A DNA stretch of 51,807 nt from Escherichia coli (GTDB taxonomy: Bacteria > Pseudomonadota > Gammaproteobacteria > Enterobacterales > Enterobacteriaceae), in NCBI RefSeq assembly GCF_003334765.1, contig NZ_QOWT01000029.1. One strand, written 5' to 3'. The position numbers were made by a program, and so were the translations under genes. Shown one piece after another: positions 1-51,807 of the stretch. The notes under the pieces are model-generated. The model ran no database searches. It had not been told where the DNA came from and saw only the letters and a list, made by a program, of their open reading frames with translations. The first letter of the stretch is position 1. Each line of letters opens with the position of its first letter.

Positions 1-190
1 ACCGAGAAAGACACTGAAGTTCAAAACACCGAAAGAGATAATTGAAAGGGGTGTTGCATTGACAGATTGAATCTACAATTACGTACTTTAGTCATGTTAC
101 GCCGATCATGTTAATTTGCAGCATGCATCAGGCAGGTCAGGGACTTTTGTACTTCCTGTTTCGATTTAGTTGGCAATTTAGGTAGCAAAC

Positions 191-32578: not shown

Positions 32579-32665
32579 GCGAAGGTGGCGGAATTGGTAG
32601 ACGCGCTAGCTTCAGGTGTTAGTGTCCTTACGGACGTGGGGGTTCAAGTCCCCCCCCTCGCACCA
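32579..32665 (+). tRNA. leuV: tRNA-Leu (anticodon CAG)
   Basis: 87-nt sequence GCGAAGGTGGCGGAATTGGTAGACGCG...GGTTCAAGTCCCCCCCCTCGCACCA with anticodon loop CTTCAGGTG and encoded CCA; only one copy present. Confidence 0.95.
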
Positions 32666-49888: not shown

Positions 49889-50845
49889 ATGAACCCGATT
49901 GCAGTTACCCTACTCACCGGTTTTTTAGGCGCGGGCAAAACCACCCTGCTGCGCCATATTCTTAACGAACAACACGGCTACAAGATTGCCGTGATTGAAA
50001 ACGAATTCGGCGAAGTCTCCGTTGATGATCAACTGATTGGCGACCGCGCCACGCAGATCAAAACGCTGACCAACGGCTGCATCTGCTGTTCGCGCTCCAA
50101 CGAGCTGGAAGACGCACTACTCGACCTGCTGGATAATCTCGACAAGGGCAATATTCAGTTCGACCGTCTGGTCATTGAATGCACCGGCATGGCCGATCCC
50201 GGCCCGATTATTCAGACCTTTTTCTCCCATGAGATTTTATGCCAGCGCTACCTGCTGGACGGCGTGATTGCGCTGGTGGATGCGGTACATGCCGATGAGC
50301 AGATGAACCAGTTCACCATCGCCCAGTCCCAGGTTGGCTACGCCGACCGTATTCTGCTGACGAAAACCGACGTCGCAGGCGAAGCAGAGAAACTGCGTGA
50401 ACGCCTGGCGCGCATCAACGCCCGCGCACCGGTCTACACCGTTACCCACGGCGATATCGACCTGGGCCTTCTGTTCAACACCAACGGTTTTATGCTGGAA
50501 GAAAACGTCGTCAGCACCAAACCGCGTTTCCACTTTATCGCGGACAAACAAAACGATATTTCGTCGATTGTGGTGGAACTGGATTACCCGGTAGATATCA
50601 GCGAAGTTTCCCGGGTGATGGAAAACCTGCTGCTGGAGTCGGCGGATAAACTACTGCGTTACAAAGGGATGCTATGGATTGACGGCGAACCTAACCGCCT
50701 GCTATTCCAGGGCGTCCAACGCCTCTACAGCGCCGACTGGGACCGCCCGTGGGGCGATGAAAAACCGCATAGCACGATGGTGTTTATCGGGATTCAGTTG
50801 CCGGAGGAAGAGATTCGGGCAGCGTTTGCGGGGTTGAGGAAGTAA
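49889..50845 (+). CDS. yjiA: COG0523 metal-chaperone GTPase YjiA
   Basis: ORF track 346 aa; start moved to MNPIAVTLLTGFLGAGKTT to give 318 aa; Walker A and CxCC metal motif GCICCS. Confidence 0.9.
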   Translation: MNPIAVTLLTGFLGAGKTTLLRHILNEQHGYKIAVIENEFGEVSVDDQLIGDRATQIKTLTNGCICCSRSNELEDALLDLLDNLDKGNIQFDRLVIECTGMADPGPIIQTFFSHEILCQRYLLDGVIALVDAVHADEQMNQFTIAQSQVGYADRILLTKTDVAGEAEKLRERLARINARAPVYTVTHGDIDLGLLFNTNGFMLEENVVSTKPRFHFIADKQNDISSIVVELDYPVDISEVSRVMENLLLESADKLLRYKGMLWIDGEPNRLLFQGVQRLYSADWDRPWGDEKPHSTMVFIGIQLPEEEIRAAFAGLRK

Positions 50846-50878
50846 TTTTGGATGATGGCCGCCATGTGGCGGCCTGAA

Positions 50879-51181
50879 TTATTTTTTGTTCTGATCGCGC
50901 AGCATCGCTTCACGTAAAATTGCGTTCAGGCGAGTTTGATAGCCTTTACCTGGTCGCTTCAACCATTCCATCACATCAGCATCAATACGCACCGAAGCCT
51001 GAGTTTTCAATGGCCGATAAAACTTACCGCGTTCGGCGTTAGACCATTGCTCATCGCTGGAAGGTGGGATATCACTGTAATCAATATCTTCGTCGGATTT
51101 ATTCGCCAGCGCCTTCAGTTCGGCCTCATGCTGCACATCGAGTGTAGAGGAGGTCCCTCGTTTATGTTTAACCATGCTCAT
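50879..51181 (-). CDS. brnA: BrnA-like antitoxin (DUF4415, ribbon-helix-helix-like)
   Basis: ORF track 147 aa; start moved to ATG at 51181 (MSMVKHKRG..., 100 aa), overlapping the upstream toxin stop by 14 nt; C-terminal GKGYQTRLNAILREAM motif. Confidence 0.75.
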   Translation of the reverse strand: MSMVKHKRGTSSTLDVQHEAELKALANKSDEDIDYSDIPPSSDEQWSNAERGKFYRPLKTQASVRIDADVMEWLKRPGKGYQTRLNAILREAMLRDQNKK

Positions 51182-51455
51182 AGCGATTCCTCTCTTTACG
51201 ATCTGCTTTTCGTGCACTGATGATTCGAATAATTTCATTTCCGCTTTCGAAACGGATGGTATGCGCAACCAGAATAACCACGATGCCGTAAACCAGGCCG
51301 ATTGTCTGCCAGCGATACTCACCGTTTTCTATGCGTTCTTGCTGTGACAAATGTTGTGGATCATCAAACAATAACACCGCATCTTCAAAGCGGATGCCAT
51401 GTTTCACCCGATTACTTTTGGCCTTGTTTTCATCCCATTCAAACTCCATTGGCAT
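51168..51455 (-). CDS. brnT: BrnT-like toxin (DUF497 family)
   Basis: ORF track 104 aa; start set at MPMEFEWDE with AGGGA 8 nt upstream; signature EFEWDENKAKSNRVKHGIRFEDAVLLFDDP; about 95 aa. Confidence 0.78.
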   Translation of the reverse strand: MPMEFEWDENKAKSNRVKHGIRFEDAVLLFDDPQHLSQQERIENGEYRWQTIGLVYGIVVILVAHTIRFESGNEIIRIISARKADRKERNRYEHG

Positions 51456-51638
51456 AATTGCCATCCCTAATTGTATATACAAAAATGTATCTACAATTAT
51501 TCTGCAATTATAGCGTTGATGTTGGAAATAGCATCACGTTTCGAATAATCAACCATGAAATTGACAATGAGTAAGTTGGACTTGATTCATCCAATAGAAT
51601 TTCTCGCCTGACATGGCACACTAAACACCTCGCTGTCG

Positions 51639-51807
51639 GGTAATGACTCCAACTTACTGATAGTGTTTTATGTTCAGATAATGCCCGATGACCTTGTCAT
51701 GCAGCTCCACCGATTTTGAGAACGACAGTGACTTCCGTCCCAGCCTTGCCAGATGTTGTCTCAGATTCAGATTATGTCGCTCAATGCGCTGAGTGTAACG
51801 CTTGCTG
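51639..51807 (-). mobile_element. insB: IS1-family insertion sequence, terminal inverted repeat and 3' end of insB, truncated by the window edge
   Basis: Begins with the IS1 terminal repeat GGTAATGACTCCAACTTACTGATAGTG; minus strand encodes the InsB C-terminus (…[44 protein letters not shown]); roughly 90% identical to canonical IS1 as I remember it. Confidence 0.85.

What the first reader, a model, noticed from the sequence alone, without database searches (positions are those of the whole stretch)
50879..51455. brnT/brnA-like toxin-antitoxin pair where K-12 carries mrr and hsdRMS
Two minus-strand ORFs are arranged as a classic type II operon, toxin first, with the toxin stop overlapping the antitoxin ATG by 14 nt. 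The upstream product has the DUF497/BrnT signature and the downstream one a BrnA/DUF4415-like C-terminus. As I recall the K-12 map, the gene after yjiA is mrr followed by hsdRMS, so this pair sits at the entry to the variable restriction/defence island. Whatever lies beyond the window is likely strain-specific and is the most promising place for new defence content.
Basis: partly seen in the sequence, partly recalled or inferred. Interest (0 to 1): 0.6.

Follow-up and report, generated by a model that had tools for sequence, protein, structure and literature searches.

The report
Known BrnT/BrnA toxin-antitoxin beside yjiA
This is an ordinary BrnT/BrnA toxin-antitoxin gene pair, already annotated and present in about 39% of complete E. 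coli genomes at the yjiA edge of the restriction-gene island; in this strain's lineage the rest of that island has been wiped out by an IS1 event, so no new defence genes are expected beyond the window.

Summary
brnT (51168-51455, minus strand) and brnA (50879-51181, minus strand) overlap by 14 nt. They match Pfam BrnT_toxin (E=4.7e-24) and BrnA_antitoxin (E=3.1e-17). NCBI's pipeline annotates exactly these coordinates as a BrnT family toxin and a BrnA antitoxin.

The pair is not new. It is single-copy next to yjiA in 2113 of 5426 complete E. coli genomes. A 2025 review lists brnAT among the toxin-antitoxin systems of the immigration control region (ICR). A toxin-antitoxin complex with an 86% identical toxin is solved (PDB 7VD7).

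The pair does not replace mrr and hsd. In Salmonella it lies between yjiA and a K-12-like mrr-hsdRMS. In 880 E. coli genomes it adjoins an Mrr-family nuclease plus a type I system.

The window ends inside an IS1 that starts at 51639. In the closest genomes, and in 1024 genomes overall, that IS1 (a pseudogene) is followed by a roughly 240-bp copy of yghX'-yghW' fused to mdtM. The island is empty.

Evidence for function: dN/dS against Salmonella is 0.02-0.06; a palindrome and a TATAAT upstream are conserved; 331 genomes have a decayed brnT with brnA kept, and the searches found none with the reverse.

Interest is low.

The parts
49889..50845 (+). yjiA (COG0523 GTPase), the conserved left anchor of the immigration control region. 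The variable cassette starts right after its stop codon.
   Evidence: PGAP CDS L001 19290-20246, which maps to window 49889-50845. The alignment of window, K-12, ST131 and E. coli C loses homology immediately after the TAA. The review defines yjiA and yjiN as the anchors.
50857..50874 (+). GC-rich hairpin GGCCGCCATGTGGCGGCC followed by a T-run. It looks like a plus-strand intrinsic terminator for yjiA. It lies inside the cassette, and its T-run is the complement of the last Lys codons of brnA.
   Evidence: It is the only terminator-like site in the scan of 50700-51807. It is absent from K-12 and E. coli C at this position.
50879..51181 (-). brnA antitoxin (100 aa). The N-terminal half contacts the toxin. 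The C-terminal half is the family's DNA-binding part.
   Evidence: Pfam PF14384, E=3.1e-17, residues 37-93. Residues 14-57 match the antitoxin chain of the 7VD7 complex, E=1.4e-16. PGAP names it 'BrnA antitoxin family protein', WP_000063156.1. dN/dS against Salmonella is 0.06.
51168..51455 (-). brnT toxin (95 aa), RelE/ParE-superfamily ribonuclease family.
   Evidence: Pfam PF04365, E=4.7e-24, full model length. Sequence match to the 7VD7 toxin at E=4.1e-52 and to Brucella BrnT 3U97 at E=1.6e-4. PGAP names it 'BrnT family toxin', WP_001297643.1. dN/dS against Salmonella is 0.02.
51468..51499 (.). Inverted repeat TAATTGTATATACA / TGTATCTACAATTA with 14-nt arms and a 4-nt gap, lying between the -10 element and the ribosome-binding site of brnT. 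Probable BrnA operator.
   Evidence: Pair I1 in the repeat finder, 93% complementary. The block ATAATTGTA(G/T)ATACATTTTTGTATATACAATTAGGGA is conserved between E. coli and Salmonella while flanking spacers diverge, and it is a perfect palindrome in Salmonella. Operator function is inferred.
51507..51512 (-). Perfect TATAAT (-10) for brnTA on the minus strand. No good -35 element accompanies it.
   Evidence: Read directly from the sequence. It is conserved in Salmonella. The consensus scan did not list it because its -35 hexamer fails the threshold.
51456..51638 (.). brnT upstream region. In undeleted relatives it is the divergent intergenic region shared with an Mrr-family nuclease gene whose GTG start lies 13 nt past the point where the IS1 now sits.
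   Evidence: ST131 locus L003 is collinear up to ...cacctcgctgtcg and then continues ttaagggattaccGTG, the start of the nuclease gene.
51639..51807 (-). The insB-side end of an IS1 (inverted repeat GGTAATGACTCCAACTTACTGAT...), running off the end of the window.
   Evidence: Sequence. PGAP annotates 'IS1 family transposase, programmed frameshift; internal stop' (a pseudogene) in identical relatives. The 9-bp flanks differ (tcgctgtcg against cggattcca), so there is no target-site duplication.

Best explanation
The two ORFs are a canonical chromosomal BrnT/BrnA type II toxin-antitoxin operon. It is the resident module at the yjiA edge of the enterobacterial immigration control region (ICR).

The working model is inferred from the family, not tested here. 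A promoter with a perfect TATAAT drives brnT then brnA, which are translationally coupled through the 14-nt overlap. BrnT is a small RelE-like ribonuclease that arrests translation when free. BrnA wraps its N-terminal half (about residues 14-57) around BrnT to neutralise it. BrnA uses its C-terminal domain to bind the conserved palindrome between the -10 element and the ribosome-binding site, which represses the operon.

In this strain's lineage, everything between the brnT upstream region and about codon 9 of mdtM has been replaced by an IS1 (now a pseudogene) plus a roughly 240-bp copy of yghX'-yghW'. The lost segment is the Mrr-family nuclease, the type I R-M system, symE, yjiS, yjiR and rpn of undeleted relatives such as ST131. 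The toxin-antitoxin pair is therefore the only conflict-type module left in an otherwise emptied island.
For: Family membership:
- Pfam hits are full-length and strong.
- The toxin is 86% identical to the toxin of a solved toxin-antitoxin complex, 7VD7, whose antitoxin chain aligns to BrnA residues 14-57.
- The 7VD7 toxin differs at one residue from the Salmonella STM4528-type protein.
- There is a weaker but significant match to Brucella BrnT, 3U97.

Family properties, taken from a paper: in vitro RNase activity, toxin-then-antitoxin gene order, and a BrnA C-terminal RHH domain that controls transcription (PMC11980606).

Already catalogued: PGAP names both genes, and the review PMC12707154 lists brnAT among the ICR toxin-antitoxin systems.

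Evidence that the genes are functional:
- dN/dS against Salmonella is 0.02 for brnT and 0.06 for brnA.
- The palindrome and TATAAT are conserved across the two genera.
- brnA is essentially full-length in 2111 genomes, but brnT reaches at least 80% coverage in only 1781.
- So 331 genomes have a decayed toxin gene with the antitoxin kept, and the searches found no genome with the reverse.

Emptied island:
- Searches show IS1 followed by mdtM.
- Searches show that the patch is a second copy of yghX'-yghW', joined to mdtM at the microhomology CATGCCG.
Against: - Nothing here tests toxicity, RNase activity, neutralisation or operator binding for the E. coli proteins.
- NCBIfam and PADLOC hold no model that matches either protein.
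- Within E. coli, brnT looks less constrained than brnA. Window against ST131 gives 5 non-synonymous and 3 synonymous changes (omega about 0.4), compared with 2 and 7 for brnA. The counts are tiny.
- One arm of the palindrome carries a mismatch in E. coli.
- The window's own genome was not identified, so what lies past the IS1 is inferred from relatives. These are 100% identical over the tested parts, and 1024 genomes share the arrangement.
Confidence: 0.88

Rival explanations
1. Inert relic. The pair is a decaying remnant with no present activity, kept only by drift and linkage to yjiA.
For: In 331 of about 2112 carrier genomes, less than 80% of brnT survives. The examples seen are internal deletions or truncations and brnA-only loci. 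Within E. coli, brnT shows 5 non-synonymous against 3 synonymous changes between two alleles.
Against: Both ORFs are intact in 1781 genomes. dN/dS against Salmonella is 0.02-0.06. The operator and -10 element are conserved across genera. Decay is one-sided: the toxin gene is lost and the antitoxin gene is kept, which is what an active toxin predicts.
Confidence: 0.06
2. Dedicated defence module. BrnTA is an abortive-infection or anti-plasmid system that works with, or regulates, the neighbouring Mrr-family nuclease and type I R-M system, rather than being a generic addiction module.
For: The pair always sits in a known defence island. In 880 genomes it is transcribed divergently from a 196-bp intergenic region shared with an Mrr_cat nuclease. 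That nuclease matches the PADLOC candidate system PDC-S02 at E=7.7e-207. Some relatives in the RelE/ParE superfamily have known defence roles.
Against: Neither protein matches any PADLOC model. The pair persists without any neighbouring restriction genes in at least 1024 genomes. It sits next to a different, K-12-type mrr in Salmonella, in tandem rather than divergent orientation. Homologues at 55-58% identity are mostly on small Acinetobacter plasmids (563 of the 766 plasmid hits), a setting typical of plasmid-maintenance modules.
Confidence: 0.1
3. The pair marks the entrance to a strain-specific island of new defence genes just beyond the window.
For: The locus is indeed the ICR hotspot, and its content varies widely. 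Besides the K-12 set, the loci seen carry an Mrr-family nuclease plus type I, GmrSD-like DUF262/DUF1524 proteins, or a Fic protein.
Against: The window ends in an IS1. In every close relative examined that IS1 leads straight to mdtM-yjiN, and 1024 genomes share this arrangement.
Confidence: 0.03

Closest known systems
Salmonella enterica BrnTA at yjiA (LT2 tags STM4528/STM4529); PDB 7VD7 toxin-antitoxin complex
   Same: The chromosomal position next to yjiA is the same, as are the toxin-first order and overlapping genes. Amino-acid identity is 85% for BrnT and 84% for BrnA. The operator palindrome and -10 element are the same. The 7VD7 toxin differs at only one residue from the Salmonella protein.
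   Different: In Salmonella the next gene is a K-12-like mrr, followed by type IA hsdRMS. Here the next element is an IS1. Synonymous sites are saturated (dS above 1.4, against 0.67 for yjiA), so the cassette alleles are older than, or exchanged independently of, the core genome. Assigning 7VD7 to Salmonella is my inference from sequence identity. No paper describing the entry was found.
Brucella abortus BrnT/BrnA (PDB 3U97), the founding members of the family
   Same: Same Pfam families and the same toxin-then-antitoxin gene order. The shared motifs W-D-x2-K-x3-N-x2-KHG-x2-F and S-x-R-x-A-x2-KER appear in the alignment. Family properties are taken from PMC11980606.
   Different: The sequence match is weak (E=1.6e-4). 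The genomic setting is different. Ribosome dependence of cleavage is unknown even for the Brucella protein.
BrnTA modules of small Acinetobacter plasmids
   Same: These are annotated BrnT/BrnA pairs with 55-58% identity to this BrnT over its full length.
   Different: They are plasmid-borne (563 Acinetobacter plasmids among 766 plasmid hits). The E. coli pair is chromosomal in 2112 of 2113 genomes that carry it.
ICR haplotype of E. coli ST131 and relatives (brnTA, Mrr-family nuclease, type I hsdMSR, symE)
   Same: Identical left junction at yjiA. The brnTA region is 97.3% identical and the upstream region is collinear up to the IS1 insertion point.
   Different: The window's lineage has lost everything from 13 nt before the nuclease start through the first codons of mdtM.

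Membership tests
BrnT toxin family (Pfam PF04365, RelE/ParE superfamily) | Significant full-length match to the family profile | tested here: met
   PF04365, E=4.7e-24, model positions 1-77 of 77, residues 7-88
BrnT toxin family (Pfam PF04365, RelE/ParE superfamily) | Sequence homology to structurally characterised BrnT proteins with the RelE-like fold | tested here: met
   7VD7 toxin at E=4.1e-52 (86% identity) and Brucella BrnT 3U97 at E=1.6e-4. The fold itself was not modelled.
BrnT toxin family (Pfam PF04365, RelE/ParE superfamily) | Toxin gene upstream of the antitoxin gene in one operon | tested here: met
   brnT 51168-51455 precedes brnA 50879-51181 on the minus strand with a 14-nt overlap. 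The family's toxin-then-antitoxin order is stated.
BrnT toxin family (Pfam PF04365, RelE/ParE superfamily) | Ribonuclease activity and growth inhibition | not testable with these tools
   Indirect support only: purifying selection and one-sided loss of the toxin gene
BrnA antitoxin family (Pfam PF14384) | Significant full-length match to the family profile | tested here: met
   PF14384, E=3.1e-17, model positions 1-68 of 68, residues 37-93
BrnA antitoxin family (Pfam PF14384) | Direct binding of the cognate toxin | tested here: inconclusive
   BrnA residues 14-57 align to the antitoxin chain co-crystallised with the toxin in 7VD7, E=1.4e-16. This is homology, not a test of these proteins.
BrnA antitoxin family (Pfam PF14384) | C-terminal ribbon-helix-helix domain that autoregulates the operon through an operator | tested here: inconclusive
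   A conserved palindrome lies between the -10 element and the ribosome-binding site. The C-terminal 46 residues of BrnA are nearly identical between E. coli and Salmonella. The RHH fold was not modelled and binding was not tested.
Immigration control region (ICR; hotspot bounded by yjiA and yjiN) | Located between the conserved anchors yjiA and yjiN, starting where core homology ends | tested here: met
   Homology breaks at the yjiA stop codon. Relatives run brnAT-IS1-mdtM-yjiN. The anchors are defined in PMC12707154, which also lists brnAT as an ICR toxin-antitoxin system.
Catalogued anti-phage defence system (PADLOC-DB v2) | Match to a model of a known or candidate defence protein | tested here: not met
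   No families matched BrnT or BrnA at E up to 0.01. The neighbouring nuclease of ST131 does match PDC-S02 and mREase_IV.

The most novel reading that the evidence does not exclude
BrnTA may act as an 'edge guard' of the immigration control region. Losing brnA while brnT is still active would be lethal, so deletions and cassette swaps that start inside the island could stop at the pair but not remove it outright. That would explain three observations: the IS1-associated replacement ends 183 bp upstream of brnT; brnA survives in all of roughly 2111 carrier genomes, even where the cargo has been exchanged (Fic and GmrSD-like genes); and brnT decays first. On this reading the module shapes how the defence island turns over, and may also act as an abortive-infection back-up to the adjacent Mrr-family nuclease.
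Probability: 0.1. Interest if true: 0.4.

Novelty: already known. Interest (0 to 1): 0.1.

Why it matters
It matters little as a discovery. The pair is already named in RefSeq annotation, listed in a 2025 review of the ICR, and represented by a solved structure of a near-identical complex.

The useful outcome is negative. This locus should not be chased for new defence systems, because the island next to it has been erased in this lineage.

Two small by-products may interest people who study the ICR:
- A census of the haplotypes across 5426 genomes: 39% carry brnA, about 16% carry the pair with an Mrr-family nuclease and a type I system, about 19% have the IS1-emptied form, and 6% have a decayed brnT.
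- In the emptied form, mdtM has acquired the upstream region and first codons of yghW.

Tried and rejected
- NCBIfam has no family for either protein, so naming rests on Pfam and PGAP's own labels.
- PADLOC has no hit for BrnT or BrnA.
- An Rfam scan of 50600-51807 gave only a sub-threshold drz-agam-1 hit (21.5 bits against a gathering score of 37, E=0.16), which I treat as chance.
- The promoter scan found no minus-strand site upstream of brnT at its thresholds. The TATAAT was read by eye and supported by conservation.
- I tested whether this emptied island is the historical E. coli C 'empty site'. It is not. E. coli C has yjiA, a DUF262 gene, an hsdR remnant and yjiS, with no brnTA.
- I first read the 'dienelactone hydrolase fragment' beside the IS1 as a remnant of deleted island cargo. 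That was wrong: it is a second copy of the yghX 3' end from elsewhere on the chromosome.
- The founding papers (Heaton 2012; Sibley and Raleigh 2004) are not in the library. No paper mentioning 7VD7 in a relevant context was found, nor any functional study of STM4528/4529.
- Strain 14EC017 looked like the source (100.0% over the last 25 kb). It differs by BrnA N86K and is only about 98% identical over the first 32 kb. Strain 300709 is a better proxy.
- I did not run structure prediction or the large protein-database searches. A solved structure at 86% identity and thousands of annotated copies already answer the question.

Full report
**What is in the sequence.** The window is an E. coli chromosomal segment running creD ... 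lgoDRT, tsr, btsT, yjiX, yjiA. After the yjiA stop codon at 50845 there are two minus-strand ORFs.
- brnT is 51168-51455 (95 aa).
- brnA is 50879-51181 (100 aa).
- brnT lies upstream, and the two genes share 14 nt, ATGAGCATGGTTAA.

These are exactly the boundaries PGAP uses for the identical sequence in other genomes: 'BrnT family toxin' WP_001297643.1 and 'BrnA antitoxin family protein' WP_000063156.1. The Salmonella record starts the antitoxin at the second ATG, which would give an 8-nt overlap. A GAGAGG Shine-Dalgarno sequence 7 nt before the first ATG makes the 14-nt version the likelier one in E. coli. That is my reading of the sequence.

**Family assignment.** Pfam gives BrnT_toxin PF04365 at E=4.7e-24 and BrnA_antitoxin PF14384 at E=3.1e-17, both over the whole model. 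Against solved structures, BrnT matches the toxin chain of 7VD7 at E=4.1e-52 (about 86% identity) and Brucella abortus BrnT (3U97) at E=1.6e-4. BrnA residues 14-57 match the 44-residue antitoxin chain of 7VD7 at E=1.4e-16. The 7VD7 toxin differs at a single residue from the protein encoded next to yjiA in Salmonella Infantis SARB27 (LT2 tag STM4528), so the structure very probably comes from the Salmonella orthologue. That is an inference. NCBIfam and PADLOC have no model for either protein.

**How it most likely works.** All of this is inferred from the family. According to PMC11980606, BrnT belongs to the BECR-fold RelE/ParE superfamily and has RNase activity in vitro, with ribosome dependence unknown. 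[quoted passage not shown] The locus fits that scheme in three ways.
- A perfect TATAAT lies at 51507-51512 on the minus strand.
- It is followed by a 14-nt-arm inverted repeat at 51468-51499, then the ribosome-binding site and the ATG.
- In an E. coli/Salmonella alignment, the conserved blocks are the TATAAT, the palindrome with the ribosome-binding site, and a stretch GTGA(T/A)GCTATTTCCAACA. The spacers between them diverge, and in Salmonella the palindrome is perfect.

The C-terminal 46 residues of BrnA are almost identical in the two genera, whereas the toxin-binding N-terminal half varies.

**Are the genes alive?** Three observations bear on this.
- Against Salmonella, brnT has 45 synonymous and 19 non-synonymous differences (omega about 0.02, with dS saturated). 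brnA has 42 and 20 (omega about 0.06). For comparison, yjiA gives 0.08. Both genes have been under purifying selection.
- Within E. coli the counts are tiny. Window against ST131 gives 5 non-synonymous and 3 synonymous changes for brnT, and 2 and 7 for brnA.
- The brnA-specific 289 bp is at least 80% present in 2111 genomes, while the brnT-specific 274 bp reaches that level in only 1781. That leaves 331 genomes with a truncated or deleted toxin gene beside an intact antitoxin gene; examples are. These searches found no genome with the reverse arrangement. This asymmetry is what an active toxin predicts.

**Distribution and context.** The pair is present once, next to yjiA, in 2113 of 5426 complete E. 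coli genomes. It is chromosomal in 2112 of them. K-12 lacks it; there, yjiA is followed by mrr, hsdR, hsdM, hsdS, symE and mcrBC. Homology among K-12, E. coli C, ST131 and the window stops within a base or two of the yjiA stop codon, so the pair is the first element of the variable cassette.

In ST131 and many other strains the pair is followed, after a 196-bp divergent intergenic region, by these genes:
- a 388-aa Mrr_cat nuclease (PF04471, E=3.8e-29; PADLOC PDC-S02, E=7.7e-207)
- hsdM, hsdS and hsdR
- symE, yjiS, yjiR, rpn and mdtM

That arrangement covers 880 genomes. In Salmonella the pair lies between yjiA and a K-12-like mrr-hsdRMS-symE.

The literature already records this. [quoted passage not shown]

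Homologues at 55-58% identity are common on small Acinetobacter plasmids, which account for 563 of the 766 plasmid hits. The only hit in the phage collection is the Salmonella chromosomal contig, filed there in error.

**What lies beyond the window.** An IS1 end starts at 51639 (GGTAATGACTCC...), 183 bp upstream of brnT and exactly 13 nt before the point where the nuclease gene starts in ST131. I examined these relatives:
- strain 300709, 100% identical to window 76-25000 and 50600-51807
- strain 14EC017, one mismatch over the last 4.4 kb
- strain W5-6
- isolate w264

In the first three the IS1 is a pseudogene followed by a 96-bp 'dienelactone hydrolase' fragment and then mdtM, yjiN and yjiM. 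In w264 the IS1 pseudogene is also followed by mdtM and yjiN, but no such fragment is annotated. A query spanning brnA-brnT-IS1-fragment-mdtM is at least 80% covered in 1024 genomes. The 9-bp flanks of the IS1 differ, so this is not a simple insertion.

The 'fragment' is not island cargo. It is a second copy of the yghX 3' end, the yghX-yghW spacer and the first 18 codons of yghW. That sequence sits at its normal locus in 5423 genomes. Here it is joined to mdtM at the microhomology CATGCCG, which replaces the first 8 or so codons of mdtM. So the island has been replaced by IS1 plus a roughly 240-bp patch, and no defence genes remain except brnTA.

This is not the classical E. coli C 'empty site', which holds a DUF262 gene and an hsdR remnant and has no brnTA.

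**Verdict.**
- Observation: confirmed.
- Interpretation: partly supported. The family and location are right. The 'in place of mrr/hsd' idea and the forecast of new defence content are wrong.
- Novelty: already known.
- Interest: about 0.1.

The most novel reading still open is that the pair acts as an addiction-based 'edge guard' shaping turnover of the island, or as an abortive-infection partner of the neighbouring nuclease. The one-sided decay and the position of the deletion end-point are compatible with this, but they do not demonstrate it.

Noticed in passing
beyond the window end; L001:21809-22075 (also L005:5006-5270 and L018:8950-9222): In the IS1 haplotype, the DNA between the IS1 and mdtM is a second copy of the yghX 3' end, the yghX-yghW spacer and the first 18 codons of yghW (MNNHFGKGLMAGLKATHA). 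It is fused in frame to mdtM at the microhomology CATGCCG. mdtM has therefore lost its own upstream region and first 8 or so codons and sits behind the yghW upstream region. At least 1024 genomes share this. PGAP labels the patch a 'dienelactone hydrolase fragment' and starts mdtM at an internal Met of the yghW part. No paper linking yghW and mdtM in this way was found.
   Followed up: partly
window 51639-51807: The IS1 end adjoining the brnT upstream region has no target-site duplication in relatives (tcgctgtcg against cggattcca). In all relatives examined the element is a pseudogene with an internal stop. This points to an old, widely inherited rearrangement rather than a recent insertion.
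   Followed up: yes
related loci L006:7351-7452, L017:3357-3452, L007:7034-7336: In 331 genomes brnT is decayed (internal deletions of about 160-170 bp, or complete loss) while brnA is kept. In strain GF60 an orphan brnA sits next to different cargo: a Fic protein, DUF1524 and DUF262 (GmrSD-like) genes, and another type I system.
   Followed up: partly
window 32579-32665: ARAGORN finds only one tRNA-Leu(CAG) gene in the window. The close relatives carry three tandem copies after rsmC, and the window is 235 bp shorter there. This is either a real recombinational collapse of the tandem tRNA genes or an assembly collapse.
   Followed up: partly
window 1-75: The first 75 bases of the window are not covered by the otherwise 100% identical matches in the best 12 genomes, where matches start at base 76. 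Something differs at the very left end, upstream of the arcA/creD region.
   Followed up: no
window 50857-50874: The terminator-like hairpin after yjiA belongs to the variable cassette and is absent in K-12 and E. coli C. Its T-run is the reverse complement of the final Lys codons and stop codon of brnA, so the yjiA terminator and the brnA 3' end overlap.
   Followed up: partly
L016 (NZ_LT985269.1, a 22-kb record labelled 'plasmid RCS63_p'): This is the single plasmid-borne copy. A chromosomal block yjiL-yjiM-yjiN-mdtM-brnT-brnA lies next to sul2, aph(3'')-Ib and aph(6)-Id on a small mobilizable replicon. It may be an IS-mediated capture of the chromosomal segment or a misassembly.
   Followed up: no
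L010:368-11588 and L004:2655-8362 (between tsr and btsT): The tsr-btsT spacer is another variable spot. E. coli C carries the hpa (4-hydroxyphenylacetate) operon there, and strain E20 carries a D-amino-acid deacylase/RidA/symporter cluster. The window has neither.
   Followed up: no
L005:3477-3779: Strain 14EC017 is otherwise identical to the window over the last 19 kb. It carries a private BrnA substitution, N86K, in the presumed DNA-binding C-terminal part.
   Followed up: no
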